This document shows positions 1,959 to 48,006 of a stretch of DNA of 64,000 nt, in pieces (positions within the stretch are counted from its first letter, which is position 1; the number at the start of each line of letters is the position of its first letter). The stretch is taken from positions 118 to 64,117 of the forward strand of contig VGKQ01000003.1 in NCBI GenBank assembly GCA_016866995.1. Direction: 5' to 3'. Position numbers and translations under genes: made by a program. This DNA is from Candidatus Pacearchaeota archaeon (GTDB lineage: Archaea > Nanobdellota > Nanobdellia > Pacearchaeales > GW2011-AR1). The notes under the pieces were generated by a model that ran no database searches, was not told the DNA's origin, and saw only the letters and a program-made list of their open reading frames with translations.

Positions 1959-3404
1959 ATGACTAAGTCTTTGGATACTCTTATAACGAGAATAGCTGGT
2001 TTTTACGCGGCTCGTCCAGATTTTACTCCAAAGAGAGCTAAAAGAGGAAGAACTATTGCTCAGAGATTTTCAAGAAGGTTTGCTCGTATCGCTCCTGAAG
2101 ATAGAGAGACTGCAAAAAAAATATTCTTGAGCTATATTTCAAAGGAGAGAGCTGAAAGAAAACCGAGTAAGGGTGTGAGAATAGAAAAACCCGCAAAAAA
2201 ATCTGATGAAAAAGTAAGAAGAGCAAGGACTGAAGAGGAACAATATGCAGAAAGAAGTTTCTATGATTTTTTTAAGAGTTATTTAGGATTTTATATTCAG
2301 GCATCTGAAGACAGGGAAAAATTAGGATTGTTCAATAGAGGTTTGTTGTATATCTTAGATGAAGTTTCAACAGATAGAACTGCAAGCAGTGTTTTGGCTA
2401 GATTTGGCAGTATATTAGAAATTCCTAATGATGCTATTTCTCTTTGGTTGCAGAGTTTGAGTCATCTTTCCAGGAGAGCTAAAGGAGGAGCCAGAACATA
2501 TGATGAAAAAATAGAGAGATACGCAGAAATTTCTACAAGACATCTTGTTGATTTTGAAGATTCTTATAGACACGTGCTTAGAGTTTTAGCTCAAGGTGAA
2601 CCTGTTTTTGGTGCTGAAGACTTTTTATTTAGATTTGCTGGAAATAAGAAGCGAGATGAAGCAGATGTTTTAGGGTGTTATAATACACTTAAAGAAGTTG
2701 ATTCAAGATTAAGGCCAGAAGTAGAGAGAGTCAGGGCGAAAGCTAGCAGAGTAAAAAATAATTCTGCTTTCTTGGCATCTGTTGACGAAAAAACTTACAG
2801 ATTAATCAAAGCAGGAAAAGGCAGAGAGTATCACCAATTAGCTACTTCTTTATTAAACCATCTTGTTGGTATGGCTTTTGGTCATAGAAGATTAGAGAGA
2901 GAACTTTCTTTATTAGAAGGAGTAGTTAATGCAAACCCAGAACTCATTGAAGATGTTTCTAGGAGACTTAAAACATTAGAATTTTCAGATTTGAATGTTC
3001 CTGCTTATCTTAAAGTTGTTACTCACTTGCAGGCGATGCAAGGCTTGACTCCTCAAGACAGAGAAAAATATATGGATATTTCAGTTGAATTATTCCAGGA
3101 TTATAATTATTGGAATAGGCAGTCAAATCCCCAGACAGTTAGAAGAAAGTGTCTTGGGGTGATTGATAAATTAAGTTCTTTGGAAGAAGATAAAAGAAAA
3201 ACTGCTCTTGATCTTGTTTATTCTTTAAAAGATAGAGTTAAAAGACACCCTAGATTAAGCCAACAACCTCCTCTTTATTTAGACAAAGCTATTGAAGTAA
3301 TAACTGAATCTGTTGCTGTTGATTCGTTCAAGGCTGTTGCATTTGTTAATCAAGTAATTAATTATCAGGATTCACCTAGAGGAGAAAAAGATGCAAAAGG
3401 TTAA
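1959..3404 (+). CDS. hypothetical helical protein inside the AAA+/vWA operon
   Basis: 481-aa ORF between the AAA+ and vWA genes. Its 3' end overlaps the next start by 14 nt. No family recognised. Confidence 0.55.
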   Translation: MTKSLDTLITRIAGFYAARPDFTPKRAKRGRTIAQRFSRRFARIAPEDRETAKKIFLSYISKERAERKPSKGVRIEKPAKKSDEKVRRARTEEEQYAERSFYDFFKSYLGFYIQASEDREKLGLFNRGLLYILDEVSTDRTASSVLARFGSILEIPNDAISLWLQSLSHLSRRAKGGARTYDEKIERYAEISTRHLVDFEDSYRHVLRVLAQGEPVFGAEDFLFRFAGNKKRDEADVLGCYNTLKEVDSRLRPEVERVRAKASRVKNNSAFLASVDEKTYRLIKAGKGREYHQLATSLLNHLVGMAFGHRRLERELSLLEGVVNANPELIEDVSRRLKTLEFSDLNVPAYLKVVTHLQAMQGLTPQDREKYMDISVELFQDYNYWNRQSNPQTVRRKCLGVIDKLSSLEEDKRKTALDLVYSLKDRVKRHPRLSQQPPLYLDKAIEVITESVAVDSFKAVAFVNQVINYQDSPRGEKDAKG

Positions 3405-28339: not shown

Positions 28340-29593
28340 ATGAATATACAAGAATTAAATCACTGGTGGACTGAAAATATGGTTAAAGAAGAATTTGTTC
28401 CGAAAACCTACAGAGAGTTGTTTGCCTCACTAAAAGAAGATTTTGGAAGAAAACAGATTCAGATTTTGATAGGATTAAGGAGAACAGGAAAGTCAACAAT
28501 TATATTCCAAATTATTGATAGATTAATAAAAGAAAATATTCCTCCATCAAATATTATTTATTGTAGTTTTGACGAGCCTGAACTGCAGAATAAAAGCTTT
28601 GATGACATTTTAAAGGATTTTTCAGGAATAATGAACATTAATTATAAGAAAGAGAAAATATACTTATTTATTGATGAAGTGCAAAAATCAAAGAATTGGG
28701 CAGATAATATCAAGCTGATTTATGATAACTTGAAAAATATAAAAATATTCTTATCTGGCTCAGCATCTTTGAATATCCTTTCTGACGCAAAAAAAAGCCT
28801 TGCTGGAAGAAGCATTTATTACGAGCTGAAGCCTCTTAATTTTAAAGAGTTTCTTAGCATTAAAGGAGTTAAAGTAGACATATCTAAGTTATTATTATAT
28901 AAAGAGGTTTTGGAAAAAGAATTTAAGGATTTTATTTTCAGGCCATTTCCTGAGTTAGTTAATGAGAAAGATATTAATTTTATCAAGAATTATATAAGAA
29001 GCGCGGTTATTGAGCCAATTATTTTAAAAGATATTCCAAAAGAGTTTAATGAAGCAGATATTTTGCTTCTTGAGAGAATTGTTGAGATATTTTTATCAAA
29101 TCCCGGGCAGTATCTAAATATGGATGGGCTTGCAAAAGATTTGAAAAGAACAAAGGCAACACTTTACAAGGCATTATTCTATCTTGAGTTTTCATTTATT
29201 ATAAGAAGAATTTTAAATTTCAGGCCTTCAATGAAGATTGCTTCAAGGAAGATGTCTAGAATCTATGCTTATCATCCATGCCTGTGCCTTCCATTTAATA
29301 TTTCTCAGGAGAAATATTCAGAAAATCTTGTTTTTTCTGAAATTGAAACAAAATTCTACTGGAGAGACAAGGAAAAAGAAATAGATTTTCTAAAAGATTT
29401 TAAGCCTGTTGAAGTTAAATATAAATCTCAAATTGAAAAACAAGACACTAAATGGATTGATTATTTTCTGGAGAAATATGGAAAAAAACTTAGTATAAAC
29501 CAGGCATATGTTATAACAAAAGATTTAGAAGAAAAAAGGGAAAATATTAAATTAATACCTTTATGGAAATTCTGCCTCTTTGGATTAAAGTAA
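28340..29593 (+). CDS. AAA-superfamily ATPase with DUF4143-like C-terminus
   Basis: Walker A GLRRTGKST and Walker B YLFIDEVQ. Length and layout are typical of the PF13173/DUF4143 family. Confidence 0.65.
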   Translation: MNIQELNHWWTENMVKEEFVPKTYRELFASLKEDFGRKQIQILIGLRRTGKSTIIFQIIDRLIKENIPPSNIIYCSFDEPELQNKSFDDILKDFSGIMNINYKKEKIYLFIDEVQKSKNWADNIKLIYDNLKNIKIFLSGSASLNILSDAKKSLAGRSIYYELKPLNFKEFLSIKGVKVDISKLLLYKEVLEKEFKDFIFRPFPELVNEKDINFIKNYIRSAVIEPIILKDIPKEFNEADILLLERIVEIFLSNPGQYLNMDGLAKDLKRTKATLYKALFYLEFSFIIRRILNFRPSMKIASRKMSRIYAYHPCLCLPFNISQEKYSENLVFSEIETKFYWRDKEKEIDFLKDFKPVEVKYKSQIEKQDTKWIDYFLEKYGKKLSINQAYVITKDLEEKRENIKLIPLWKFCLFGLK

Positions 29594-29608: not shown

Positions 29609-30607
29609 TCAGAACAAGTTTTTCGGAAAATAAACATACTTATATTCTTCATAAGCTATTAAATTTTCATAGTGATTGATTTCTTTTGGAAATAAAGCTC
29701 TAAGCTTGAGAAGGGTTTCCTGCAGTTCATTTATATCCTTGACAAGAAGATAAATTAAAACATTGAATCTTCCTATTGTTTTTACTGCCCATAATGTATT
29801 TTTGTCAGAAGTGAGAAAATCCTTCAGGATTTTCTCTTTTTTCTTATCAAGCGCAGAAATATTCAATAATATTGTATAAAGATTATAGTCAAGAGAAGTG
29901 TAATTTATTACAGGAATGAATTTTATTATTGTGCTTGAATTAATCATATTTTTAATCCTGTAGGCAACAGCATCTGCTGATAATTTTACTTTTCCTCCAA
30001 TTTCATACAAAGGAAGCTGGGCATTTTCCCCTATTATCTTTAAAATTTCTATGTCTTTTTTATCTATATTAGTTTCCCTTTTTTCAATTTTTCTTTCAAT
30101 TTTGAAATCTGAAAAATTCGGAGGGAATGTTTCTGCTGCATAGGTTTTTGTTATTGTTAAAATTTCGTAATCATGCATGTATCCAAAGCAGTCAGAGATT
30201 ATTTTTGTTATAAGACTATCAAGCTCTTCTATATTTTTAGCAATTAAAGCAATTTCAAAATCAAAGTTTCCAGAGAATTTTATAATTGCTCGGATATTTG
30301 GGTATTTCTCAAGCTTTTTTATTATTTTTTGCTCTATTTCTTGAGATGGATTATTTAGCTTGAGGAAAAGGTGATAATTATTATATCCAAATTTGGAAAT
30401 ATCAACCATTGTTCTGTATCCCTGTATTAATCCATCTTTCTCGTAATTTTTTATCCTATAATTAACTGCATCACGAGAAAGTGCAACTTGTTTTGCTAGT
30501 TTTGTTAAGGGTATTCGGGCATTTTGGGAAAGAAGAGCAAGAATTTTTCTGTCTTTTGCATCAGTTTTTACTTTTTTAGTCTCTTTAGTTTGCTGTAGGT
30601 ATCTCAT
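29609..30607 (-). CDS. tandem Lrp/AsnC-like regulator (two HTH-RAM units)
   Basis: Two copies of the D-x-x-D-x-x-IL-x-x-L-x-x-NA-R HTH pattern (DAKDRKILALLSQNARIPL and DKKDIEILKIIGENAQLPL). Confidence 0.6.
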   Translation of the reverse strand: MRYLQQTKETKKVKTDAKDRKILALLSQNARIPLTKLAKQVALSRDAVNYRIKNYEKDGLIQGYRTMVDISKFGYNNYHLFLKLNNPSQEIEQKIIKKLEKYPNIRAIIKFSGNFDFEIALIAKNIEELDSLITKIISDCFGYMHDYEILTITKTYAAETFPPNFSDFKIERKIEKRETNIDKKDIEILKIIGENAQLPLYEIGGKVKLSADAVAYRIKNMINSSTIIKFIPVINYTSLDYNLYTILLNISALDKKKEKILKDFLTSDKNTLWAVKTIGRFNVLIYLLVKDINELQETLLKLRALFPKEINHYENLIAYEEYKYVYFPKNLF

Positions 30608-30731
30608 TTTCTTTCATTGTGATAAGCCTAAATTAGTTTATAAATATTTCGGAAAATACGTATTTTTTGTTAAAATATTTCTTATATTTCTGAATACTAT
30701 AGATATTGTCCAGATTGGACGGAGAAAGAAA

Positions 30732-31349
30732 ATGGAAACACAATTTGTTGTTGATGAAGAAAACAAAGAAGCAGAGGATTACAGAGCAAGTTATGCACGA
30801 AGAATAGAGCAAGCAGCCTATGTTGCCTGGAGGCTTTCTTCAAAACTTCCTTATCATAATTTTAGGCATGCTGTTGATGTTTATTCTGCTGCAAATGTTC
30901 TCGCGCATATGGAAAATGTTTCTGGGGAGGACAGATTCCTGTTAAAAACTGCATCATTATTTCATGATGTTTTGTTTCAGCCAGGCTATGCTTATAATGA
31001 GGAACTAAGTGCAAAATGGGCTGGAAAATGCCTGCCTCATTTAGGATATTCTCCTAAACAAGTTGAGAAAGTAAAAAAATTAGTTCTTGCAACAAAATTG
31101 CCAACCCACCCAGAAAATTTACTTGAAAGAATAATGTGTGATGCTGATTTGGATAATCTTGGAAGAGATGACTTTTTTGACAGGGGAGAAGCATTAAGAC
31201 AGGAATGTGGATGGGCTTTAAACAACGGATTTTATGAAAATCAGAAAAAGTTTTTGCAATTTCATCAATACTACACTCAATCAGCAAGAAATTTAAGAGA
31301 TGAAGGCAAGAGAAGAAACCTTGAAGAGCTTGAAAGGAGATTAAAATGA
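30732..31349 (+). CDS. HD-domain phosphohydrolase
   Basis: H...HD...D pattern: FRHAVDV, SLFHDV, CDADLDNLG. Confidence 0.65.
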   Translation: METQFVVDEENKEAEDYRASYARRIEQAAYVAWRLSSKLPYHNFRHAVDVYSAANVLAHMENVSGEDRFLLKTASLFHDVLFQPGYAYNEELSAKWAGKCLPHLGYSPKQVEKVKKLVLATKLPTHPENLLERIMCDADLDNLGRDDFFDRGEALRQECGWALNNGFYENQKKFLQFHQYYTQSARNLRDEGKRRNLEELERRLK

Positions 31350-32407
31350 TTGTTGCGGGTTGGTCATTTACAAATGCCTGCAATCTCAGATGCAAACACT
31401 GCTATAATGCTTCTGGCATGAGAAGGGAAGATGAATTAACATTTGAAGAAAGCTTAAGGGTTGCAGATAAATTAAAAAAAGCCAGAGTCGCTGCTGTAAA
31501 TTTTGGAGGAGGAGAGTGTGCCCTTCGTCCTGATTTTATTGATTTATGCAAGTATCTTCATAAAATTGGGATTAAAATTTCTTATACTACAAATGGAACA
31601 ACTTTTAATCTGATTAAAGATAATCTTGATTTGTTTAGTGATATTGGAGTGAGTATTGATTTTGCTGACAAAAAGAAGCATGATGAATTCCGCGGAGTTA
31701 ATGGAGTTTATGACAACGCAATTGAAACTATAAAGGAACTTGTTAAAGCTGGAGTTGATACAGAAATTATTACTTGTCTAACTAAACTAAACTGTTCTGA
31801 TGAAGAGTTAGAAAAGCTGTATAATTTAGCAAGAAAATTAAAAGTTAATTATTGGAGGCTTAACAGGTTCAGAGCAAATGGAAGAGGGATAGAAAACAAA
31901 ATTAATTTAGAATTATCAAATGAAGAATTAAGAAAAGCTTATGAATTTCTTAGCAGATATGTGAAAGGAAATGTTTCTGAGCCAATTTTCAGAGCCGTAT
32001 TTGGAGGGAATTATTATATTCCTGGAGATCCATCTGGAAATACTGCTTTTAGGATCCAGGTTAATGGAGAAGTTTCTCCTTCTGTTTTTCTTTCTGAGTC
32101 TGGAGGGAATATAAAAAATAAAAGTGTTGAGAAAATTTTTGATTCCAGTATTTTTAGAAAAATAAGAAACAGAAAGCCAAGAGGAAAATGCAAGCATTGT
32201 CCTGCTTATTTTCATTGTAAGGGAGGAGATGCTGGTGCTTCTTATCTGCAATATGGGCATTTTGACGGCCCTGATCCACTTTGTTGGATTAATCCCAAAA
32301 AAGCAAAAAAAGCCACCAAAACACAGCCAAAAAACTGGAATGTGCACGAATTTTATTTGTGTACCCTATACGTTCCAATAAACAATTGGGGGAAAAATGG
32401 AAAATAA
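31346..32407 (+). CDS. radical SAM enzyme with SPASM/twitch-like C-terminal Cys cluster (1 of 2)
   Basis: CNLRCKHC is a CxxxCxxC motif near the N-terminus. GGGE motif present. C-terminal CKHCPAYFHCKGG ... CW. Start overlaps the HD gene stop (ATGA). Confidence 0.75.
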   Translation: MIVAGWSFTNACNLRCKHCYNASGMRREDELTFEESLRVADKLKKARVAAVNFGGGECALRPDFIDLCKYLHKIGIKISYTTNGTTFNLIKDNLDLFSDIGVSIDFADKKKHDEFRGVNGVYDNAIETIKELVKAGVDTEIITCLTKLNCSDEELEKLYNLARKLKVNYWRLNRFRANGRGIENKINLELSNEELRKAYEFLSRYVKGNVSEPIFRAVFGGNYYIPGDPSGNTAFRIQVNGEVSPSVFLSESGGNIKNKSVEKIFDSSIFRKIRNRKPRGKCKHCPAYFHCKGGDAGASYLQYGHFDGPDPLCWINPKKAKKATKTQPKNWNVHEFYLCTLYVPINNWGKNGK

Positions 32408-33404
32408 AATTATACTCCCAAAACTTGATTTAAATGTAACTAATAGATGCAATTTTCGATGCGTGCATTGTGCTTTTGATTCTGGAATTGTCAGCATGGG
32501 GGAGTTAACTCTTGGTGAATTGGAAAAAATTTTGAGTGATACAAGAAAGCTTGGTGGGAGAAGAATTGACATTACAGGTGGAGAGCCATTGTTAAGAGGA
32601 GATGTTGAAGATATTATTTCCATAGCAAAAAAACTTGGGTATAAAGTAGAGCTTGTAACTAATGCCTCGCTTTTGACTGAAGAAAAACTCAGCAAATTTA
32701 GGGGATTAGGATTAGATGGGATTGCAATAAGTTTGGACGGAGCAAGTGCTGAAACTTACAACAGAATAAGAAGAAGAGACAAGAAAACATTTGCGAAAGT
32801 GCTTGAAAATATACAAAAATCAGTTGAACTTGGTTTTTATACAAAAGTAAATACTGTGATATTTGACTTTAATCTTGAGGAAATTCCAAAAATTGTAGAA
32901 TTGTGTTTGAAACTAGGAGTTCAGGAAAATGGTATTTATTATTTTACCCCTATTGGAAGAGGAAATAGAAGCACTGAACTTGCCATAGAGCCTCTAAAAT
33001 GGCTGAAATTTATAAGAGAAAGACTGATGAAGTACACAAATTCTGGGATGAAAATCTCTCTTGAGGTTCCATTAATAGAAAGAAAATATTGGAATCGTGG
33101 ATTGGGATGCATTGCAAATACCGAGAAAAATCATCTACAGATACTTCCGGATGGGAATGTTTATCCGTGTGCAATTCTTGCTTCTTACAATAAGCCTGTT
33201 GCAAACCTGAAGCAATGTTCTGTTAAAAATATCTGGAATAATAAAAAACTCTGGAGAGATTATTGGAAAGATATTTCCAGGGTTTTTCCGTGTAAGTCCT
33301 GTGTTGATTTCAAGTCTGCTTTTAGTATGAAAAATTATGATTTTAGAAAATACAGATTTGTATGCCCTTTGAGAAAGTTTAAACTTGAGGAGTTGGAAAA
33401 ATGA
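32397..33404 (+). CDS. radical SAM enzyme with SPASM-like C-terminal Cys cluster (2 of 2)
   Basis: CNFRCVHC motif and ITGGEPLL. C-terminal GC ... YPC ... PCKSC ... VCP. Overlaps the upstream gene by 11 nt. Confidence 0.75.
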   Translation: MENKIILPKLDLNVTNRCNFRCVHCAFDSGIVSMGELTLGELEKILSDTRKLGGRRIDITGGEPLLRGDVEDIISIAKKLGYKVELVTNASLLTEEKLSKFRGLGLDGIAISLDGASAETYNRIRRRDKKTFAKVLENIQKSVELGFYTKVNTVIFDFNLEEIPKIVELCLKLGVQENGIYYFTPIGRGNRSTELAIEPLKWLKFIRERLMKYTNSGMKISLEVPLIERKYWNRGLGCIANTEKNHLQILPDGNVYPCAILASYNKPVANLKQCSVKNIWNNKKLWRDYWKDISRVFPCKSCVDFKSAFSMKNYDFRKYRFVCPLRKFKLEELEK

Positions 33405-33970
33405 GAGGTTTATTTGTTGTTTGTGAGGGGCTTGATGCGAGCGGAAAAACAACTACAATTAAGAAAGCTCTGGAATTATTGGGAAATGAATTTTTATACA
33501 GCAAGGGGCTGAAAACAGGAACAATTGCAGGCAAGTTATCAAGTTTATTTCCCTCAACTTTCACACTTTTGCTTGAAATTATATACCATGACTGGTTTTT
33601 TGTAAGAAAGAATCTTAAAAATGGAAAAACCATATTACAAGATAGATGGCATTACACTGTTCTTTCTCATAATCCTAAGAACTGGAAGGATGAATTACTT
33701 GAAAGGTTGTGTGTTCCTTATATTTCCGAGCCAGATATCTATGTTTATTTTAAAGTGTCTGATGAAAAAAGGCTTGAAAGGCTTGCTGCAAGGGAAAATG
33801 CAAAGGAGCATGAGTTTTTGATTAATGATTCTGAAAGAAGAAAAGAAATGGAAGAGAGATTTTTTAGGAAATACAGAGATTTTCCTGGAGAAAAACATAT
33901 CATTGATACTTCAAATCTCTCAGTAGAAGAATGTGCTGAGAGATTATATAAGATAGTTAGCAGAAAATAG
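33401..33970 (+). CDS. thymidylate-kinase-like P-loop nucleotide kinase
   Basis: FVVCEGLDASGKTT P-loop in Tmk-type context, and a DRWHYT region matching the DR-x motif position. Start overlaps the upstream stop. Confidence 0.6.
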   Translation: MRGLFVVCEGLDASGKTTTIKKALELLGNEFLYSKGLKTGTIAGKLSSLFPSTFTLLLEIIYHDWFFVRKNLKNGKTILQDRWHYTVLSHNPKNWKDELLERLCVPYISEPDIYVYFKVSDEKRLERLAARENAKEHEFLINDSERRKEMEERFFRKYRDFPGEKHIIDTSNLSVEECAERLYKIVSRK

Positions 33971-34019: not shown

Positions 34020-35501
34020 ATGATAACAAATGATGAACTTGACGAGCTTCTTGAGAAGCTTGGGAAAATCAGGGGCAGGCATACTGAACTTGTAACTGTG
34101 CTGATTCCAGCTGGAGCTAATATCTACACAATTGCAGACCAGATTGCAGCAGAACAATCAACAGCAGACAATATCAAGTCAAAAACAGTGAGAAAAAACG
34201 TAATGGACGCACTGGAGATGATTTCCCGTGAGTTGAAGAAATACAAAAAAACCCCTGATAATGGCATGGCAATTTTCTGCGGTAATGTTTCTGAAAAAGA
34301 AGGGCAGAATGACATTCAGCTTTGGATTATTGAGCCCCCCCAACCCCTTAAAACAAGATTATACAGATGCGACCAGGTTTTTGTTATTTCTCCATTGCAG
34401 GAAATGAGGGAAGTGCAGGAAGTTTATGGCTTGCTTGTAATGGACAGGAGAGAGGCAACAATTGGATTGCTTGAAGGAAAGAATATTAAAGTTATAAGAA
34501 AAATGTCTTCTGGTGTTCCTGGAAAAATTCGGGCAGGAGGGCAATGTCTATCTCCTGATACTTTAATAGAAACAAAAAATGGAAATATAAAAATAAAAGA
34601 CGTTAAAATAGGCGATGAGATTAAATCCTTAAACATAGAAAACAATAAAATTATATTTTCCAAATGCCTAAATAAATGGACAAAAAATAAAAGCGAATAT
34701 CTTCAAATAATAACTAAAAATAACTCAATTATCTCTTCAGCAGAACATTTATTTTTTTTATGGGATAATAATAGTTTAATTGAAGTTCAAGCTGATTGGA
34801 TTAAGAAGAATGCTATATTGTTAAATAATAATTTAGAAGCTGAAAAAGTAAAAAAGATTATCAACAAGAAGCAGGAAATAGAATTAATAGATATCGAAAC
34901 AGAAGCTGAAAATTTCTTTGCTAATGGAATTCTTGTGCATAATTCATCGCAGAGATTCGAGAGGATTACAGAAGGATTGGCAAAAGAATTTTTTAAACGT
35001 GTGGCAGACAGCATGAAGGAAATTTTTTTTGACATGCCAAAATTAAAAGGAATACTTGTTGGAGGACCCATTCCGACAAAAGAGGAATTTCTGCAGAAAG
35101 GAGAGCTTGTGACAAAACTGAAAGACATGGTTATTGGAATAAAAAATCTTGGAAATACAGACGAGTCTGGACTTGAGGAATTAGTTGAATTAAGCCATGA
35201 TATTCTTTCTCAGCAAGAAATTATCAAGGAGAAAAAAATTCTTGAGAAATTTTTTGAAACATTAGGAAAAAATCCTGACAAGGCAGTTTACAAGATTGAT
35301 GATGTAAAAAAAGCCCTAAAGTATGGGGCTGTTTCTCTCTTGATTTTAAGCAAGAAGCTTGACAAGAAAACCGCAAGAGAACTAAGAAATGAGGCTGAAA
35401 ATATCTCATCTGAGGTTGAAATGATTTCCACAGAGACAGAAGAAGGAGAGCAGTTCTGGAATTTGGGAGGAATTGGAGCTTTGTTGAGGTTTAAAGTTTA
35501 A
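34020..35501 (+). CDS. prf1: peptide chain release factor aRF1, interrupted by a mini-intein
   Basis: NIKS motif (ADNIKSKT). The GGQ motif is followed immediately by the intein. Extein resumes SSQRFERITE. C-terminal domain present. Confidence 0.9.
   Translation: MITNDELDELLEKLGKIRGRHTELVTVLIPAGANIYTIADQIAAEQSTADNIKSKTVRKNVMDALEMISRELKKYKKTPDNGMAIFCGNVSEKEGQNDIQLWIIEPPQPLKTRLYRCDQVFVISPLQEMREVQEVYGLLVMDRREATIGLLEGKNIKVIRKMSSGVPGKIRAGGQCLSPDTLIETKNGNIKIKDVKIGDEIKSLNIENNKIIFSKCLNKWTKNKSEYLQIITKNNSIISSAEHLFFLWDNNSLIEVQADWIKKNAILLNNNLEAEKVKKIINKKQEIELIDIETEAENFFANGILVHNSSQRFERITEGLAKEFFKRVADSMKEIFFDMPKLKGILVGGPIPTKEEFLQKGELVTKLKDMVIGIKNLGNTDESGLEELVELSHDILSQQEIIKEKKILEKFFETLGKNPDKAVYKIDDVKKALKYGAVSLLILSKKLDKKTARELRNEAENISSEVEMISTETEEGEQFWNLGGIGALLRFKV
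34545..34943 (+). mobile_element. 133-aa mini-intein (no homing endonuclease domain) inserted directly after GGQ of aRF1
   Basis: Starts with Cys (CLSPDTLIETKNG, block A). Has an SAEH block-B-like T-x-x-H. Ends with GILVHN followed by the +1 Ser. The in-frame insertion splits RAGGQ|SSQRFERI. Confidence 0.85.
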
Positions 35502-36549: not shown

Positions 36550-37803
36550 ATGAAAATACTTCCAATTATTTATCTTGCATATATGTTTATAGCATTGTAC
36601 ATGTTTTTCTTCTTTCTTCTTCTTTACCTCAGAAACAGGAAACACTTGTTTGAGTACCCAAAAACAAAAAAAATTTATTCTTTAAGCATAATTATTCCGT
36701 GCTATAATGAAGAAAAAGGAATTAGAGGAACAATAGAATCTGTTCTTAAGACAGATTATCGCGGATTGAAAAAAGTCATTGTTGTGGATGACTGCTCAAC
36801 AGATAATTCTTTTCAGATTATAAGGGAAATTGCGAAGAAAAATAAAAAGGTTATTGCTGTTCAGACTCCAAAAAATACAGGAAATGCAGCAGGAGCCAAG
36901 AATTATGGAATAAAATTTGCAAATACAGAGTTAATAGGATTTAGTGATGCTGATTCTTTTATTCAAAGAGACGCAATTTCAAAAATGACAGGGTTTTTTG
37001 ATGATAAAGAAACCGGGGCTGTAACCTGCGCGGTTCTTGTCAAGGAAACAGACAATTTTATAAGAAAATTGCAGGCATTTGAATATTCAATGATTGCATG
37101 GACTAGAAAGTTGCTGGAATATATTGAAGGAATTTGGGCAACTCCCGGGCCCCTGGCAATATACAGAGCCAGCATAATCAGGAAGATAGGAGGATATGAT
37201 TCCAAAAATTTAACAGAAGATATTGAGATTGTCTGGAGGATTGTCAAAAATGGCTGGAAAGTTAAAATGTGCCTTGCTGCAAGAGTTTACAGCACTGCGC
37301 CTAAAAAATTTTCTTACTGGTTTAAGCAGAGAGTCAGATGGGATGTTGGCGGATTGCAGTGCATTAACAAGTATAAATCATTATTTATGAAAAAAGGCAT
37401 GTTAGGATTTTTTATTATTCCTTTTTTTACACTTTCTCTTATGCTTGGATTAATTGGAATGGGGGTATTTTTTTATGTAGCAGGAACAAATATTATCCAG
37501 AATTTTTTATTTGTTGATTACACAGCCAGAGCAGGAACGCATCTTCTTGCACTTGAAGAAATAAATCTTACTCCAACAATCCTGAATTTTTTTGGCATAG
37601 TGTTGTTTTTGCTTGGATTGTTTTTTACTCTGGCAGGATTGGGGGTAATGGGCGAGAAAAGAGGAGGGATAAGAAATATTTTTAACCTGCTGTTTTATAT
37701 GATAATTTATCTTACAGTATATCCTTCAATAATGATTTTTGCAATAGGAAAAATACTTAAATACAGAATTCAGGGGAAAAGAATAGGGTGGCTGACAAAA
37801 TGA
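36550..37803 (+). CDS. membrane-embedded family-2 glycosyltransferase of the processive type (NodC/chitin- or cellulose-synthase-like)
   Basis: IIIPCYNEE, VVDDCSTDNS, DADS, TEDIE and the Q-x-x-R-W motif (KQRVRWDVG), flanked by multiple TM helices. Confidence 0.75.
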   Translation: MKILPIIYLAYMFIALYMFFFFLLLYLRNRKHLFEYPKTKKIYSLSIIIPCYNEEKGIRGTIESVLKTDYRGLKKVIVVDDCSTDNSFQIIREIAKKNKKVIAVQTPKNTGNAAGAKNYGIKFANTELIGFSDADSFIQRDAISKMTGFFDDKETGAVTCAVLVKETDNFIRKLQAFEYSMIAWTRKLLEYIEGIWATPGPLAIYRASIIRKIGGYDSKNLTEDIEIVWRIVKNGWKVKMCLAARVYSTAPKKFSYWFKQRVRWDVGGLQCINKYKSLFMKKGMLGFFIIPFFTLSLMLGLIGMGVFFYVAGTNIIQNFLFVDYTARAGTHLLALEEINLTPTILNFFGIVLFLLGLFFTLAGLGVMGEKRGGIRNIFNLLFYMIIYLTVYPSIMIFAIGKILKYRIQGKRIGWLTK

Positions 37804-43009: not shown

Positions 43010-43753
43010 ATGGAAATAGAGAAAGAAAGGAAGATATCAGCTGGAAGCTATGATTTGAACAGGTTTTTGTATGGGGGATATGAGAAAGACATTATTACAA
43101 CTATTTATGGAGCAGCTGGGACAGGAAAAACTAATTTTTGTTTGCTCACAAGTGTCTCTCTTGCCAAGAAAAACAAGAAAGTCATGTTTATTGATACAGA
43201 GGGGGGTTTTAGTGTTGAAAGAGTTAAACAATTATCTGGAGAAGAATATGAAAAAGTTTTAGGAAATATAATCTTGCTGAAGCCAGTGAGCTTTGATGAG
43301 CAGGAAGAGGCTTTTTCAAAATTGCTGAGAGAAATCAAGAAAGATGAGATTGGATTAATTGTTGTTGATGGCATGACTATGTTGTATAGATTAGAATTAG
43401 CAGAGGCAATAAAAGAGAAAAGTGAGAGCAGGATTAGAGAAATTAATTCTAAACTTGCAAAACAATTAAGAACTCTTGCAGAAATTGCAAGAACAAGAAA
43501 TATTCCTGTTATTGTAACTAATCAGGTTTATTCTGAATTTTTAAGCGAGGAAGATTTTAAAGCAGGAAAGCAGAGAGAAATTCATATGGTTGGAGGAGAC
43601 TTGTTAAAATACTGGAGCAAATGTCTTCTCGAGTTAAAAAATGAGAAAGGAAAAAGAAAATTAATTTTGAGAAAACACCGCTCGCTTCCTGAAAAATCTC
43701 TTGAATTTGAGATAATTAGTTCTGGAGTGAGAAAGAGGGGCTGGTTAGCTTAA
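43010..43753 (+). CDS. radB: RadB (RecA-superfamily) recombination protein
   Basis: Walker A GAAGTGKTNF, Walker B LIVVDG, short archaeal RadB length. Confidence 0.8.
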   Translation: MEIEKERKISAGSYDLNRFLYGGYEKDIITTIYGAAGTGKTNFCLLTSVSLAKKNKKVMFIDTEGGFSVERVKQLSGEEYEKVLGNIILLKPVSFDEQEEAFSKLLREIKKDEIGLIVVDGMTMLYRLELAEAIKEKSESRIREINSKLAKQLRTLAEIARTRNIPVIVTNQVYSEFLSEEDFKAGKQREIHMVGGDLLKYWSKCLLELKNEKGKRKLILRKHRSLPEKSLEFEIISSGVRKRGWLA

Positions 43754-45184
43754 TTGAGAAGTATGTTCTAGAGCCGCAGCTTTTATATCTGTTGCCTGAT
43801 AAATTCCTCTGCCGACAATAGCATGCCAGGAATTTCCTGCTACTTTTGCTGCATCTTCAATCTTTCCTCCTTGGGCAACAAAGCCTGGAGCATAGAAAAT
43901 TGGAGTGACACCTTCTGCTTCTATTACTTCTTTAATTTGTTTTATAATTTCTGGCTTATTTCCTGGAACAACAAAATTATTTACTCCTTCCTGTGCCGCA
44001 ATTCTATATATTTCAAGAGCACCCTCGTCTGTTATAAATCCGCCCTCGCTTACAGCATATGCAGGATGAGTCATTCTTCCACCCACAATAACCTTTAATC
44101 CTTTATCAATGGCATGATAAATCCATGCTCTTTCTGTTTCTGGACCAGATTGGGGGAAGAAAATAACTGCATCAACACCTGCTTCTTTACAAACTTCTGC
44201 AAAATTTTTTCCTGTATCAGGAATATCTGTCCCTGCTTTTTGATGATCATATATTATTGGCTTTTTAGTATATTTTCTAGCAGTTTCAACAATTTTTCCT
44301 AGTCCGTATTTTAGACTTAACTGAAAACCTATTTTATACCCTCCAATTTCTTTTATTTTTGCAGTTTCTTTTACTATTTTTTCAAATTCTTCTATTGTTG
44401 GAACATCACATGCCGGAATAATACTTCTTTCTGTTTCAATAATCTTTTGCTCTGTTTTTCTTAACATCTTTTTCACGCTTTTAGTCCCGTAGGTTCTTAG
44501 ATAATTCATCATTCTCTCAATATCTTCCTTTTTTATCTCTCCGTTTGGAGTTTTTAGTGGTATATTTTCTATTAGAAAATCTAAAACATCAAGGGCATTT
44601 ACAATAGAAACAACCCGTGTTCCGGTTTTTGCTTCGTATTCTTCTATTGCACTTTTTCCATCCACTCCAACCTCTTGCCTGTCAACAGCAATTGCCAGTA
44701 GAGGAAGATTAAAATCACCAATACTTTGCAAAACCTCTCTTGCCTGATATTTTGCATCTCCTGCTGTGAAAACATCATCTAGTTGTATAACAGACTGATT
44801 GTTTTTAGGAGCCATTCCAACAACTAAAGCTTTAATTCTTTCTGCCTGGCTTAAATTTGTTGCCTCTCCATATTCTTTAGCAACTTTTCTTGTGAAAAAC
44901 CAGCCAGTATTCTTCCCTTTTTTTGCCATTGCTATTGCAGTCGCAACTGCAAGTGCGTTTCCTTTTTCAGGAATGCCATATAACAAATCAAAACTGACAC
45001 CAGAATTTAATATTGAGTCTGCATAAAATTCTCCCAATACCTTTGTTGATTCGCCTTCATTAAAATCCCCTACATTAACAAACCACGGAGAAATCCTCTT
45101 GCTTTTTAAAGAAAAATCCCCTCCTATTTTTAATGCTCCAGTTTTAAGCAAAAACATAATAAATTCTTTTTTGTATTGTTGCAT
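43745..45184 (-). CDS. pyrE-pyrF: bifunctional orotate phosphoribosyltransferase / OMP decarboxylase (PyrE-PyrF fusion)
   Basis: The N-terminal half has OPRT features (FSLKSKRISPWFVN, PRPP loop VIQLDDVFTAGD). The C-terminal half has OMPDC features (CDV ..., YDHQKAGTDIPDT, VGRGIY). Confidence 0.8.
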   Translation of the reverse strand: MQQYKKEFIMFLLKTGALKIGGDFSLKSKRISPWFVNVGDFNEGESTKVLGEFYADSILNSGVSFDLLYGIPEKGNALAVATAIAMAKKGKNTGWFFTRKVAKEYGEATNLSQAERIKALVVGMAPKNNQSVIQLDDVFTAGDAKYQAREVLQSIGDFNLPLLAIAVDRQEVGVDGKSAIEEYEAKTGTRVVSIVNALDVLDFLIENIPLKTPNGEIKKEDIERMMNYLRTYGTKSVKKMLRKTEQKIIETERSIIPACDVPTIEEFEKIVKETAKIKEIGGYKIGFQLSLKYGLGKIVETARKYTKKPIIYDHQKAGTDIPDTGKNFAEVCKEAGVDAVIFFPQSGPETERAWIYHAIDKGLKVIVGGRMTHPAYAVSEGGFITDEGALEIYRIAAQEGVNNFVVPGNKPEIIKQIKEVIEAEGVTPIFYAPGFVAQGGKIEDAAKVAGNSWHAIVGRGIYQATDIKAAALEHTSQLS

Positions 45185-46389: not shown

Positions 46390-48006
46390 ATGATAGAAAA
46401 AAAGCAAATTGGAGCAAAAATAGTATGGCCTTTTACAATTCCTTCCGGAATTATTACGACTCAGGTTTCTTGCATAAATAAGATTGCCAAAGAAATAGAA
46501 GAGATAGGAATATTAACAACTAAAAGTATTGGACCAGAAAAAAGGGAAGGAAATAAAGAACCTATTTTAACACAATATATGCCTGGATGTTTTCTGAATG
46601 CAGTTGGATTAACTAACCCCGGGGCAGAGGAATTTGCAAAACATCTTTCTTCTATTAAGATGCCAGAAGATAAATTTTTGCTTGTATCCATTTTTGGCAA
46701 AAATGCAGATGAATTTGTTTTTGTTGCCAAAAAATTAGAGAATTTTGTTGATGGATTTGAATTAAATCTCTCGTGTCCGCATGCAAAAGGATATGGTATG
46801 CAACTTGGGCAAGACCCAGAAGTAGTTGAGCAAATTACAAGAGCTGTTATAATTGCGACAAAAAAACCTGTTTTTGCTAAATTAACTCCAAATGTAAGTA
46901 ATATTGGAGACATTGCCCGTGCTGCAATTAAAGCTGGAGCTTTAGGATTGGTTGCTATTAATACAGTAGGTCCGGGATGTCATATTATAGACGGAAATCC
47001 GGTTTTAACAAATAAGAATGGGGGAGTTTCTGGAAAGTGCATAATGCCGATAGGTGTTAAAGTTGTTAAGGAAATCAGGGATGCTGTCGGTCCTGAGCCC
47101 ATAATAATTGGAATGGGTGGAATTTCGACAGCGAGAGATATTGAAGCTTATGAAAAAGCAGGAGCTAATTTCTTTGGAATTGGCAGCTCGTTGGCTGGAA
47201 TGAAAGATATTGAAATTAAAAATTATTTCTCTGCGCTTGTTTCTGACTTAAATACAAGAAGAAATAATGCAGCAGCATTGCTTAAGGATGTTGATATGAA
47301 CTATAAAAAAGTTAAAGTTACTGGTAAACTTGAGCAGTGTTCTGATTTTAAATTAATTAAAACAGAGGAGAAAATTGAAGCTTCTCCAGGGCAGTTTGTT
47401 TTTGCTTGGATTCCTGGAGTTGGAGAAAAGCCATTTTCTGTAATGGATGATGATCCTTTAATTTTAGGAGTTTTAGAGAGGGGGCAATTCACTCGAGCAA
47501 TTAATTCTTTGAAAGCAGGAGATAGTTTTTACATTAGGGGGCCGTATGGAAAACCAATTTTTATCCGGGATAATAGTGCTATTGTTTTAATTGGCGGAGG
47601 CTGCGGAGTCGCAGGATTGTTTTTGCTTGCCAAAAAATTCTCAAGCACAAATAAAATAATTATTCTTCTTGGAGCCAAAGATAAAAAGCATCTTTTTCAT
47701 TTAGATGAATTTAGAAAATATGGAAAAGTTTATGTTGCAACTGAAGATGGAAGTTCAGGAGAGAAAGGGTTAGTTACAGATTTATTAAAGAAAATTGTAC
47801 TTGAACCAAATAGTTATTTTTTTAATTGCGGGCCGAGGGCAATGATTGATGCTGTTCTGCCTTTGGAGCTTGCTATTTCTCCGCCAGACAGGGTTTATTC
47901 ATCTGCAGATTATATGACTTCATGCGGAGTTGGAATTTGCGGAAAGTGTGCAGATGAAAGAGGAAGAAGAACCTGTGTTGAAGGGCCTTTTATGGTTGCT
48001 TGCTAA
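46390..48006 (+). CDS. pyrD-pyrK: dihydroorotate dehydrogenase 1B catalytic subunit fused to the PyrK electron-transfer subunit
   Basis: The N-terminal ~300 aa is PyrD-like (NAVGLTNPG, LNLSCPH, GGVSG). The C-terminal ~235 aa is a PyrK-like FNR fold ending with the 2Fe-2S motif CGVGICGKC ... C. Confidence 0.8.
   Translation: MIEKKQIGAKIVWPFTIPSGIITTQVSCINKIAKEIEEIGILTTKSIGPEKREGNKEPILTQYMPGCFLNAVGLTNPGAEEFAKHLSSIKMPEDKFLLVSIFGKNADEFVFVAKKLENFVDGFELNLSCPHAKGYGMQLGQDPEVVEQITRAVIIATKKPVFAKLTPNVSNIGDIARAAIKAGALGLVAINTVGPGCHIIDGNPVLTNKNGGVSGKCIMPIGVKVVKEIRDAVGPEPIIIGMGGISTARDIEAYEKAGANFFGIGSSLAGMKDIEIKNYFSALVSDLNTRRNNAAALLKDVDMNYKKVKVTGKLEQCSDFKLIKTEEKIEASPGQFVFAWIPGVGEKPFSVMDDDPLILGVLERGQFTRAINSLKAGDSFYIRGPYGKPIFIRDNSAIVLIGGGCGVAGLFLLAKKFSSTNKIIILLGAKDKKHLFHLDEFRKYGKVYVATEDGSSGEKGLVTDLLKKIVLEPNSYFFNCGPRAMIDAVLPLELAISPPDRVYSSADYMTSCGVGICGKCADERGRRTCVEGPFMVAC

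What the first reader, a model, noticed from the sequence alone, without database searches (positions are those of the whole stretch)
30732..33970. Translationally coupled HD hydrolase / two SPASM-type radical SAM enzymes / Tmk-like kinase operon: possible nucleotide-modifying pathway
Seen directly:
- Four genes have overlapping stop/start codons (31346/31349, 32397/32407, 33401/33404).
- An HD phosphohydrolase (FRHAVDV, LFHDV).
- Two paralogous radical SAM proteins (CNLRCKHC and CNFRCVHC) with extra C-terminal Cys clusters.
- A P-loop protein with the thymidylate-kinase-type GLDASGKTT motif.
- No obvious precursor-peptide ORF is adjacent.

Established knowledge:
- Radical SAM enzymes next to nucleotide kinases occur in antiviral nucleotide-analog synthesis (viperin-like systems).
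- P-loop kinases plus radical SAM enzymes also occur in viral thymidine hypermodification pathways.
- SPASM enzymes are otherwise typical of peptide or cofactor maturation.

Inference: the combination of a nucleotide kinase and a phosphohydrolase points to a nucleotide-derived substrate. The product and role (defence, DNA or RNA modification, cofactor) are open.
Basis: partly seen in the sequence, partly recalled or inferred. Interest (0 to 1): 0.65.

Follow-up and report, generated by a model that had tools for sequence, protein, structure and literature searches.

The report
Nucleotide-linked radical SAM operon in DPANN archaea
A tiny symbiotic archaeon carries a tightly packed, separately regulated set of four genes (a nucleotide pyrophosphatase-like enzyme, two iron-sulfur radical enzymes and a nucleotide kinase-like enzyme) that recurs as a block in related archaea, matches no characterised pathway, and most likely makes or reworks an unusual nucleotide.

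Summary
Four + strand genes at 30732-33970 overlap by 4, 11 and 4 nt and carry the quoted motifs. The window comes from a Candidatus Pacearchaeota (DPANN) chromosome.

The unit is larger than reported. It includes a divergently transcribed tandem Lrp/AsnC regulator (29609-30607, - strand) and a ~55-bp intergenic block conserved at the DNA level.

In 27 related genomic loci the block regulator | HD - rSAM1 - rSAM2 - Tmk-like recurs while the flanking genes differ.
- rSAM1 is the invariant core.
- A Tmk-like kinase is present in 22 of 27 loci.
- The HD is adjacent in 13 and fused to rSAM1 in one.
- In divergent relatives of rSAM1 (about 40% identity), and in the window family's own loci L023 and L026, a NUDIX hydrolase stands in place of the HD and the Tmk stays.

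The HD model is closest to YpgQ, a (d)NTP pyrophosphohydrolase.

No curated family cutoff (AhbC/D, NirJ, MftC, PqqE, MoaA, viperin, dTMP kinase) is reached. The regulator resembles true Lrp transcription factors, not siroheme decarboxylase. No precursor-peptide ORF or RRE domain exists.

Best reading: an accessory, regulated nucleotide-modifying module made of a pyrophosphatase, radical SAM chemistry and an NMP kinase. Its product is unknown. I found no published description of it.

The parts
29609..30607 (-). Tandem Lrp/AsnC-type regulator (Lrp2, 332 aa: two HTH_AsnC-type domains plus a ligand-binding domain), transcribed divergently from the operon
   Evidence: Pfam HTH_AsnC-type 84 bits in 2 stretches, AsnC_trans_reg 33 bits. 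NCBIfam AsnC 86 bits against AhbA 25 and AhbB 19 bits. Best PDB sequence hits are Lrp transcription factors (LrpA 1i1g, FL11), with no siroheme decarboxylase hit. Adjacent and divergent in 19 of 27 loci.
30637..30692 (.). Conserved bidirectional promoter/operator block: T(A/T)TATAAAT - TTTCGGAAAA - N6-8 - ATTTT - N4 - TAAAAT.TTTCTTATAT
   Evidence: Aligned across 17 loci from different DPANN lineages at 67% mean column identity. It is also present in L032, where the regulator-HD pair lacks the rSAMs. Operator function is inferred.
30732..31349 (+). HD-domain phosphohydrolase, YpgQ-like, with a class-I-PDE-like N-terminal motif (PYHNxxH ... HD ... NEExSA ... ATK ... CDADxxNLG)
   Evidence: Pfam HD 20 bits and PDEase_I 19 bits. 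Invariant Y41, H42, H46, H78, D79, D137, D139. AF2 pLDDT 95. Best PDB fold match is B. subtilis YpgQ, TM 0.69-0.74. Adjacent in 13 loci and fused to rSAM1 in L030/P0071.
31346..32407 (+). rSAM1: radical SAM enzyme with a partial SPASM domain; the invariant core of the module
   Evidence: C12x3C16x2C19, C282xxC285x5C291, C313 and C339 are invariant. Pfam Radical_SAM 91 bits, SPASM 30 bits. No NCBIfam cutoff is met; the best are GeoRSP 172/400 and MftC 156/265. The whole family falls into one 50%-identity cluster (620 bits; the next cluster scores 368). AF2 pLDDT 92, generic SPASM/twitch fold.
32397..33404 (+). rSAM2: second radical SAM enzyme with a twitch-like C-terminal domain (four conserved Cys)
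   Evidence: C20x3C24x2C27, then C237, C258, about C300 and C323 conserved. Pfam Radical_SAM 110 bits, SPASM 37 bits. NCBIfam NirJ2 135/500, PqqE 128/381, archaeal MoaA 119/325, viperin 92/180. Present in 23 of 27 loci.
33401..33970 (+). Tmk-family P-loop NMP kinase-like protein (TMKL)
   Evidence: Pfam Thymidylate_kin 45 bits (GA 27). TIGR00041 48 bits against a cutoff of 83. The P-loop EGxDxxGKT and the QDR motif are conserved. Best PDB hits are vaccinia and Sulfolobus Tmk. PADLOC VakA 43 bits. A Tmk-like gene is in 22 of 27 loci. PGAP name: hypothetical protein.

Best explanation
This is a self-contained, ligand-regulated accessory operon of DPANN archaea that performs radical chemistry on a nucleotide.

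Proposed flow (inferred):
1. The YpgQ-like HD enzyme, replaced by a NUDIX hydrolase in sister clusters, converts a (deoxy)nucleoside triphosphate to the monophosphate, or trims the product.
2. rSAM1, the invariant core, and rSAM2 each use a SAM-derived 5'-deoxyadenosyl radical plus an auxiliary Fe-S cluster. They carry out one or two successive transformations on the sugar or base of that nucleotide, probably as a complex.
3. The Tmk-family kinase phosphorylates the (modified) monophosphate to the diphosphate so it can re-enter the triphosphate pool.
4. The divergent tandem Lrp/AsnC protein binds the conserved intergenic operator and switches the operon on or off in response to a small ligand.

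The reverse order is equally compatible with the data. In that case the kinase feeds substrate to the rSAMs and the HD releases or detoxifies the product, as in viperin+CMPK2 or OxsA/OxsB.

Shown here: gene content, linkage, domain families, conserved catalytic motifs, and non-membership in curated families.
Inferred: substrate class, order of steps, product and biological role.
For: 1. Linkage is independent of neighbourhood. In 27 loci only Lrp2, HD, rSAM1, rSAM2 and TMKL recur, and no flanking family is shared.

2. The same functional trio persists when the parts change.
- L026: HAD - rSAM1 - MTAP-like phosphorylase - Tmk - NUDIX.
- L023: rSAM1 - amidohydrolase - B12 rSAM - Tmk (TIGR00041 95 bits, above cutoff) - NUDIX.
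- L036, with an rSAM1 relative of 40% identity: rSAM1-like - Tmk - rSAM/SPASM - methyltransferase - NUDIX.
- L038, 41% identity: Tmk, a (faint) deoxyribosyltransferase-like protein, rSAM1-like, amidohydrolase, B12 rSAM, NUDIX, and a YhhQ-type transporter.

3. An HD-rSAM1 fusion exists (P0071/L030, 550 aa, one reading frame). rSAM-rSAM fusions occur among more distant relatives (P0210, P0239; about 27-30% identity to rSAM1).

4. The HD model (pLDDT 95) is closest to YpgQ, a Mn-dependent (d)NTP pyrophosphohydrolase (PMC8177086). Its metal ligands are invariant.

5. TMKL keeps the P-loop and the DR motif.

6. Precedents.
- Viperins are genetically linked to CMPK2, a nucleoside monophosphate kinase of the superfamily that also holds thymidylate kinases (bioRxiv 10.1101/2023.09.13.557418).
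- The HD enzyme OxsA forms the nucleoside analogue oxetanocin-A by removing its phosphates (PMC8177086); its partnership with the radical SAM enzyme OxsB is from my own knowledge.

7. The Lrp2 operator block is conserved at the DNA level in 17 loci.
Against: - No substrate is shown and no biochemical data exist.
- By sequence, the nearest named rSAM families act on tetrapyrroles or peptides (AhbD, NirJ2, MftC, GeoRSP), not on nucleotides.
- The MTAP-like phosphorylase and the amidohydrolase in variant clusters may only clear the 5'-deoxyadenosine by-product.
- The HD is absent from about half of the loci.
- TMKL could still be the housekeeping dTMP kinase that merely rides in the operon. This could not be tested.
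- Glycosyltransferases sit next to some sister clusters, which allows a nucleotide-sugar reading.
Confidence: 0.55

Rival explanations
1. Tetrapyrrole or other cofactor maturation of the Ahb/NirJ type. The two rSAMs would be AhbC/AhbD- or NirJ-like enzymes, and the tandem Lrp-like protein would be a fused siroheme decarboxylase (AhbA/B, NirDL).
For: NirJ2 and AhbD are among the better NCBIfam hits for both rSAMs (145/126 and 135/124 bits). The next tier of rSAM1 relatives is rich in AhbD/NirJ2-like proteins (20 of 50). Siroheme decarboxylases have an Lrp/AsnC fold (own knowledge). Lrp2 gives faint AhbA and AhbB hits (25 and 19 bits).
Against: - All scores are 3-5 fold below the curated cutoffs of 500-650.
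- Lrp2 scores far better as AsnC/LrpA (86 and 79 bits). It hits only Lrp transcription factors in the PDB.
- Lrp2 sits next to a conserved operator.
- No siroheme or uroporphyrinogen genes are in any of the 27 neighbourhoods.
- This reading does not explain the persistent Tmk, NUDIX and HD partners.
Confidence: 0.07
2. Peptide or protein maturation (a RiPP or enzyme-maturase system), as for most SPASM enzymes.
For: - The closest solved structures by fold are SkfB, SuiB and anSME.
- MftC and GeoRSP are the top NCBIfam hits for rSAM1.
- A CDPS-like gene is inserted in three loci.
Against: - No small ORF fits within or beside the operon.
- No conserved short ORF family occurs across the loci (ORFs of at least 70 aa only).
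- rSAM1 and rSAM2 start directly at the CxxxCxxC motif, so there is no RRE/PqqD domain and no separate PqqD gene.
- 53-69% identity of rSAM1 across the DPANN genome loci (54-82% among metagenome homologues) is atypical for RiPP maturases (own knowledge).
Confidence: 0.06
3. Nucleotide-sugar or glycan tailoring. The rSAMs would modify the sugar of an NDP-sugar (DesII- or BlsE-like chemistry), and the kinase and pyrophosphatase would handle the nucleotide carrier.
For: - BlsE and DesII are among the sequence and fold hits.
- A GT2 gene sits directly upstream of the L036 cluster, and GT1 genes flank the P0210 cluster.
- NUDIX enzymes also cleave NDP-sugars (own knowledge).
Against: - No sugar-1-phosphate nucleotidyltransferase, dehydratase or epimerase is conserved in the 27 loci.
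- Glycosyltransferases are absent from the main architecture. The GT2 at 36550-37803 in the window is not conserved.
Confidence: 0.1
4. A mixed operon. TMKL would be the cell's ordinary dTMP kinase, co-transcribed for convenience, while the rSAMs act on an unrelated target such as tRNA or rRNA.
For: - Compact DPANN genomes often pack unrelated genes with overlapping codons (many overlaps).
- In L023 the linked kinase passes the dTMP-kinase cutoff (95 against 83 bits).
- No second Tmk is in the 64-kb window.
Against: - Linkage to a Tmk-like gene survives complete turnover of the flanks and of the other partners, down to 40% rSAM1 identity.
- TMKL scores 48 against 83 bits on TIGR00041, and PGAP leaves it unnamed.
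- The Arg that the pairwise alignment places at the base-contacting position of vaccinia Tmk is Asp or variable here (tentative).
- The block was found in only 27 of 185,579 species genomes, so it cannot be the general DPANN Tmk.
Confidence: 0.12
5. A viperin-type antiviral defence system proper, making a 3'-deoxy-3',4'-didehydro-NTP chain terminator.
For: - PADLOC pVip profiles hit rSAM2 (104 bits, nearly full length) and rSAM1 (83 bits). TMKL hits VakA (43 bits).
- The distribution is sparse and patchy.
- The neighbouring AAA_14/DUF4143 gene matches defence candidate PDC-S01 (185 bits).
Against: - NCBIfam viperin scores 73 and 92 against a cutoff of 180.
- Both enzymes carry auxiliary-cluster domains, which viperins lack.
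- Two rSAMs are needed here.
- A dedicated Lrp-type regulator with a conserved operator is more typical of metabolic operons.
- The PDC-S01 neighbour is not conserved.
- No copy occurs in IMG/VR.
Confidence: 0.08

Closest known systems
Viperin / prokaryotic viperin (pVip) with its linked NMP kinase (CMPK2, Vak kinases)
   Same: - A radical SAM enzyme is genetically linked to an NMP kinase; TMKL itself is Tmk-family, and CMPK2 belongs to the same NMP kinase superfamily.
- The substrate is a nucleotide.
- The distribution is sparse.
- PADLOC pVip and VakA profiles give partial hits.
   Different: - The curated viperin cutoff is not met.
- There are two rSAMs rather than one.
- Both have auxiliary Fe-S domains.
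- An HD pyrophosphatase and a dedicated Lrp regulator are part of the unit.
Oxetanocin A pathway OxsA (HD phosphohydrolase) + OxsB (radical SAM)
   Same: An HD-domain phosphohydrolase and a radical SAM enzyme work together, as a complex, on deoxyadenosine phosphates (PMC8177086, plus own knowledge). Here the HD and rSAM1 are adjacent, and they are fused in one genome.
   Different: - OxsB is cobalamin-dependent, whereas rSAM1 and rSAM2 have no B12 domain.
- OxsA is YfbR-like, whereas this HD is YpgQ/PDE-like.
- The oxetanocin cluster has no kinase.
Phage pre-replicative dNMP modification (T4 dCTPase gp56 - dCMP hydroxymethylase gp42 - dNMP kinase gp1)
   Same: The logic is the same trio: an NTP pyrophosphatase, an NMP-modifying enzyme and an NMP kinase (own knowledge).
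   Different: - The modifying enzymes here are radical SAM proteins, not ThyA homologues.
- The locus is cellular and chromosomal.
- No viral copies were found.
AhbC/AhbD and NirJ (alternative haem and haem d1 radical SAM/SPASM enzymes), MftC, GeoRSP rSAM
   Same: These are the nearest named families in sequence space, with the same SPASM-type architecture.
   Different: - Scores lie far below the family cutoffs.
- There is no tetrapyrrole or peptide context.
- The partners are nucleotide-handling enzymes.
MoaA (GTP 3',8-cyclase)
   Same: - It is a radical SAM enzyme with a single C-terminal auxiliary cluster that acts on a nucleoside triphosphate.
- rSAM2 scores 119 bits on archaeal MoaA over its N-terminal half.
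   Different: - The cutoff of 325 bits is not met.
- No MoaC, MoaB or MoaE partners are present.
- The C-terminal Cys spacing differs.
YpgQ (B. subtilis HD-domain (d)NTP pyrophosphohydrolase)
   Same: It is the best structural match to the HD protein (TM 0.69-0.74), with the same mononuclear H...HD...D site.
   Different: - Sequence identity is only 17-18%.
- The N-terminal PYHNxxH motif is class-I-PDE-like.
- The activity is untested.

Membership tests
Viperin / pVip | Sequence reaches the curated viperin model (NF038283, cutoff 180 bits) | tested here: not met
   rSAM1 73 bits, rSAM2 92 bits
Viperin / pVip | Single [4Fe-4S] cluster, no auxiliary-cluster domain | tested here: not met
   Both proteins have Pfam SPASM hits above GA and conserved C-terminal Cys
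Viperin / pVip | Produces ddh-NTP and protects against viruses | not testable with these tools
   Needs biochemistry and infection assays
AhbC / AhbD / NirJ (tetrapyrrole rSAM) | Reaches the curated equivalog cutoffs (500-650 bits) | tested here: not met
   Best scores are 145 bits (rSAM1, NirJ2) and 135 bits (rSAM2, NirJ2)
AhbC / AhbD / NirJ (tetrapyrrole rSAM) | Accompanied by siroheme decarboxylase AhbA/B or NirDLGH | tested here: not met
   The tandem Lrp protein scores 86 bits on AsnC against 25 bits on AhbA. Its PDB hits are only Lrp transcription factors, and it has a conserved operator
RiPP SPASM maturases (MftC, PqqE, GeoRSP, SkfB-type) | Reaches the family cutoff | tested here: not met
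   GeoRSP 172/400, MftC 156/265, PqqE 128/381
RiPP SPASM maturases (MftC, PqqE, GeoRSP, SkfB-type) | Precursor peptide gene and an RRE/PqqD domain or protein | tested here: not met
   No small ORF in the gaps. There are no N-terminal extensions before CxxxCxxC. No PqqD was found in Pfam scans of the neighbours
MoaA | Reaches the curated cutoff (284-325 bits) | tested here: not met
   rSAM2 119 and 117 bits, rSAM1 72 and 69 bits
dTMP kinase (TIGR00041 equivalog) | Reaches the cutoff of 83.25 bits | tested here: not met
   48 bits. In contrast the L023 kinase scores 95 bits
Thymidylate kinase superfamily (Pfam PF02223) | Pfam gathering score, P-loop GxxxxGKT, DR(Y/W) motif | tested here: met
   45 bits against GA 27. 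EGxDxxGKT and QDR are conserved in 21 sequences
dTMP kinase (housekeeping role) | Sole Tmk of the genome, specific for dTMP | not testable with these tools
   Only 64 kb of the genome is available, and it holds no second Tmk. Whole-genome search and an enzyme assay are needed
HD-domain phosphohydrolase | H...HD...D metal ligands and the all-helical HD fold | tested here: met
   Invariant H42 or H46, H78, D79, D137 and D139. The model has pLDDT 95 and matches YpgQ and PDEs. Pfam HD falls just below GA (20 against 22)
OxsA/OxsB-type HD + rSAM pair | Cobalamin-binding domain in the rSAM partner | tested here: not met
   No B12-binding domain in rSAM1 or rSAM2
Lrp/AsnC transcription factors | AsnC-type HTH plus a RAM ligand domain | tested here: met
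   Two HTH_AsnC-type stretches (84 bits) and AsnC_trans_reg (33 bits). DNA binding itself is not tested

The most novel reading that the evidence does not exclude
The operon would synthesise a previously unknown modified (deoxy)nucleotide using two auxiliary-cluster radical SAM enzymes acting at the mono- or triphosphate level. An HD (or NUDIX) pyrophosphatase and a dedicated NMP kinase would shuttle the compound between phosphorylation states. The product would serve DPANN archaea as an antiviral or anti-host nucleotide analogue, or as a non-canonical building block for their own nucleic acids. That would be a cellular, radical-SAM-based counterpart of phage dNMP hypermodification or of viperin.
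Probability: 0.3. Interest if true: 0.85.

Novelty: new variant of a known kind. Interest (0 to 1): 0.6.

Why it matters
- DPANN archaea are almost entirely uncultured and have very small genomes. A five-part module kept intact across Pacearchaeota, Woesearchaeota, other Nanoarchaeia and Aenigmatarchaeota must therefore pay its way, even though it is rare.
- Radical SAM enzymes that act on free nucleotides are few (MoaA, QueE, viperin, OxsB, BlsE, PolH). Each one has revealed new chemistry or a new antiviral or antibiotic molecule.
- This block offers a clean candidate. It consists of four small soluble proteins, a predicted regulator with a defined operator, and natural variants (NUDIX in place of HD, a CDPS-like insert, B12-rSAM additions) that can guide substrate guesses.
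- If the product is a nucleotide analogue, it could be a new chain terminator or a new nucleic-acid modification. It could also say something about how symbiotic archaea deal with viruses or hosts.

Tried and rejected
- Siroheme decarboxylase reading of the tandem Lrp protein. Rejected on NCBIfam and PDB sequence scores and on the conserved operator.
- Precursor-peptide search. Nothing was found in the gaps or as a conserved ORF family.
- Literature searches. I searched for DPANN + radical SAM + SPASM, for rSAM + Tmk + HD, for rSAM + NUDIX + Tmk, and for viperin + SPASM. No description of this operon turned up. The hits concerned GDGT/GMGT lipid rSAMs and viperins.
- Viral origin. There is no relative in IMG/VR. 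INPHARED phages give only generic rSAM similarity of mostly 28% or less (up to 35% over half-length hits).
- Fold search of rSAM1. It returned only the generic SPASM/twitch fold with TM of 0.69 or less, so it gives no substrate clue.
- Search for a second Tmk.
  - None is in the window.
  - A weak P-loop hit in L009 turned out to be CMP/adenylate-kinase-like.
- Homologue search with TMKL. It gave only 6 hits because the family evolves fast.
- Sigma-70 promoter and terminator scan. It was uninformative for an archaeon (13 sites against 13.9 expected).
- Lipid-synthase reading (Tes, GDGT-MAS). Only weak N-terminal similarity was found, and there is no lipid context.

Full report
**What is there**

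The window is a chromosomal stretch of a Candidatus Pacearchaeota (DPANN) archaeon from a metagenome. The proteins match NCBI entries MBM3233699-703 exactly, and they also match JGI and Logan contigs. Housekeeping genes surround the locus:
- ValRS.
- aRF1 with an intein.
- ScpB.
- MetRS.
- Topoisomerase I.
- PyrD- and PyrF-like genes.

The ORF listing confirms four + strand ORFs at 30732-31349, 31346-32407, 32397-33404 and 33401-33970, with overlaps of 4, 11 and 4 nt. All quoted motifs are present.

Pfam results:
- Radical_SAM plus SPASM for both middle genes.
- Thymidylate_kin for the last gene (45 bits, GA 27).
- A sub-threshold HD hit for the first gene (20 bits, GA 22), together with a weak class-I phosphodiesterase hit.

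Overlapping codons are common in this genome, so the coupling alone says little.

**The unit is bigger than reported and is conserved as a block**

A scan of 185,579 species genomes found 27 loci. Almost all are labelled Woesearchaeota, Pacearchaeota, Nanoarchaeia/Nanoarchaeota or Aenigmatarchaeota. tblastn, ORF clustering and family HMMs show which gene families recur:
- rSAM1 in 27 of 27 loci.
- rSAM2 in 23.
- A Tmk-like kinase in 22.
- A divergently transcribed 332-aa tandem Lrp/AsnC protein in 19.
- The HD protein adjacent in 13 and fused in one.

No flanking family is shared. The block is therefore an autonomous module, not a remnant of general synteny.

Three observations fit an accessory element under strong constraint:
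- It is rare: 27 species genomes.
- rSAM1 is highly conserved: 53-69% identity across the genome loci of these lineages and 54-82% among the metagenome homologues, and the whole family collapses into a single 50%-identity cluster.
- It is absent from IMG/VR.

The 124-bp gap between the regulator and the HD gene holds a block of about 55 bp that aligns across 17 loci. It reads as a TATA-like element, then TTTCGGAAAA, then ATTTT, then TAAAAT.TTTCTTATAT. I read this as a bidirectional archaeal promoter with an operator.

**What the parts are**

HD:
- The ligands H...HD...D and a PYHNxxH / NEExSA / CDADxxNLG signature are invariant or nearly so.
- The AF2 model (pLDDT 95) is closest to B. subtilis YpgQ (TM 0.69-0.74), followed by class-I PDEs.
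- YpgQ is a Mn-dependent (d)NTP pyrophosphohydrolase (PMC8177086).

rSAM1:
- It has CxxxCxxC at residues 12-19 with no N-terminal domain.
- Invariant Cys are C58, C144, C282xxC285x5C291, C313 and C339.
- Two canonical SPASM Cys positions are Asp or Ser in most members but Cys in P0118 and P0120.

rSAM2:
- It has CxxxCxxC at residues 20-27.
- Only four C-terminal Cys are conserved, which is twitch-like.

Neither rSAM reaches any curated NCBIfam cutoff.
- rSAM1: GeoRSP 172/400, MftC 156/265, NirJ2 145/500, AhbD 126/500, viperin 73/180, MoaA 72/284.
- rSAM2: NirJ2 135/500, PqqE 128/381, AhbD 124/500, archaeal MoaA 119/325, viperin 92/180.

The rSAM1 model (pLDDT 92) shows only the generic SPASM/twitch fold.

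In sequence space rSAM1 is an isolated family:
- The next clusters score 368-308 bits against 620 for the family itself.
- Beyond them lies a continuum of AhbD/NirJ2-like, MftC and GeoRSP proteins.

TMKL:
- It keeps the P-loop and the QDR motif.
- It scores 48 bits against the 83-bit cutoff of the dTMP-kinase equivalog.
- PGAP leaves it unnamed.

The regulator:
- It scores as AsnC/LrpA (86 and 79 bits) rather than as AhbA or AhbB (25 and 19 bits).
- In the PDB it matches only Lrp transcription factors.

**Why a nucleotide substrate is the best reading**

The partners of rSAM1 change from cluster to cluster, but their functional classes do not.
- L026: HAD - rSAM1 - MTAP-like phosphorylase - Tmk - NUDIX.
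- L023: rSAM1 - amidohydrolase - B12 rSAM - Tmk - NUDIX. This Tmk scores 95 bits on TIGR00041, above the cutoff.
- L024: rSAM1 - rSAM - unknown protein - PfkB kinase - B12 rSAM.
- L036, a sister cluster at 40% identity: GT2 - rSAM1-like - Tmk - rSAM/SPASM - methyltransferase - NUDIX.
- L038, at 41% identity: Tmk, a (faint) nucleoside-deoxyribosyltransferase-like protein, a RaSEA-like rSAM with an ArcS-domain protein, rSAM1-like, amidohydrolase, B12 rSAM, NUDIX and a YhhQ-type transporter.

Further links:
- The HD and rSAM1 are fused in P0071/L030.
- rSAM-rSAM fusions occur among more distant relatives.
- The regulator-HD pair with the same operator also occurs without the rSAMs, followed by a HAD-like protein.

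The recurring trio is thus a nucleotide pyrophosphatase (HD or NUDIX), a radical SAM core and an NMP kinase. Three known systems use this logic:
- Phage dNMP modification (own knowledge).
- Viperin plus CMPK2.
- OxsA/OxsB, for the HD plus rSAM pairing (and own knowledge).

**Caveats**
- The MTAP-like and amidohydrolase genes may only remove 5'-deoxyadenosine.
- The order of steps and the product are inferred.
- Whether TMKL is the only Tmk of the genome could not be tested. No second Tmk is in the window.

**Rivals**
- The Ahb/NirJ reading fails on scores, on the nature of the Lrp protein and on context.
- The RiPP reading fails on the absence of a precursor and of an RRE.
- A strict viperin reading fails the curated cutoff and the single-cluster criterion, although PADLOC pVip and VakA profiles give partial hits.
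- A nucleotide-sugar reading and a 'housekeeping Tmk hitch-hiker' reading remain open at about 10% each.

**Novelty**

Eight full-text searches found no description of this block, within the limits of that library. Each protein belongs to a known superfamily, and the overall logic has precedents. I therefore class the finding as a new variant of a known kind (a nucleotide-directed radical SAM module), with an unknown product.

Noticed in passing
window 30637-30692 (within the 30608-30731 gap): A block of about 55 bp is conserved at the DNA level across 17 DPANN loci. It has two TATA-like elements flanking TTTCGGAAAA...ATTTT. It is probably the Lrp2 operator and a bidirectional promoter. A 13-bp perfect palindrome, GTCCAGATTGGAC, at 30708-30720 is specific to the window.
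   Followed up: partly
L016:6738-7619, L020:8996-9811, L025:3946-4857: A gene of about 270-300 aa is inserted between rSAM1 and rSAM2 in three loci. It gives only weak cyclodipeptide-synthase hits (Pfam 26.4 and 18.2 bits against GA 27; BtCDPS E 0.014). It conserves G-[IV]-S and Y-x-I-D where, from memory of CDPS active sites, the catalytic Ser and Tyr/Glu would lie. This may point to an aminoacyl-tRNA-dependent step in those variants.
   Followed up: partly
L032/L033:4882-8711: The tandem Lrp regulator, the same operator and the HD gene occur without any rSAM or Tmk. They are followed by a HAD-like 236-aa protein and a 423-aa protein with no family hit. This variant is widespread in metagenomes (120 index blocks).
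   Followed up: partly
L038 (JGI 3300033141 contig), whole locus: A large sister cluster combines these genes: Tmk, a (faint) deoxyribosyltransferase-like protein, an Hsp70-like ATPase, methyltransferases, a RaSEA-like rSAM with an ArcS-domain (DUF5591) protein, rSAM1-like, amidohydrolase, B12 rSAM, NUDIX and a YhhQ/Vut_1 transporter. It looks like a 7-deazaguanine-type or other purine-analogue pathway.
   Followed up: no
window 31346-32407 (rSAM1 residues 227-231 and 295): Most family members have GDPSG and D295 where two minority members (P0118, P0120) have GCxCG and Cys. This suggests loss or Asp-ligation of one SPASM auxiliary cluster in the main family.
   Followed up: no
window 34020-35501: The aRF1 gene immediately downstream carries an intein (Hint/Intein_splicing hits inside eRF1 domain 2).
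   Followed up: no
window 28340-29593: An AAA_14 + DUF4143 ATPase lies upstream of the regulator. It matches the PADLOC defence candidate PDC-S01 at 185 bits. It is not conserved next to the block in other loci.
   Followed up: partly
window 43745-45184 (-) and 46390-48006 (+): There are unusually long OMP-decarboxylase-like (479 aa) and dihydroorotate-dehydrogenase-like (538 aa) genes. This DPANN genome therefore keeps at least part of de novo pyrimidine synthesis, possibly as fusions.
   Followed up: no
window 1959-3404, 3391-5814, 13321-15807: Three large ORFs (481, 807 and 828 aa) have no Pfam hit at E of 1e-5 or better.
   Followed up: no
P0207, P0210, P0217, P0219, P0229, P0239 (representative search): Distant relatives of rSAM1 (about 24-32% identity to it) are natural fusions of two to four radical SAM/SPASM modules (663-1098 aa). 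The P0210 locus also holds GT1 glycosyltransferases and a B12 rSAM.
   Followed up: partly
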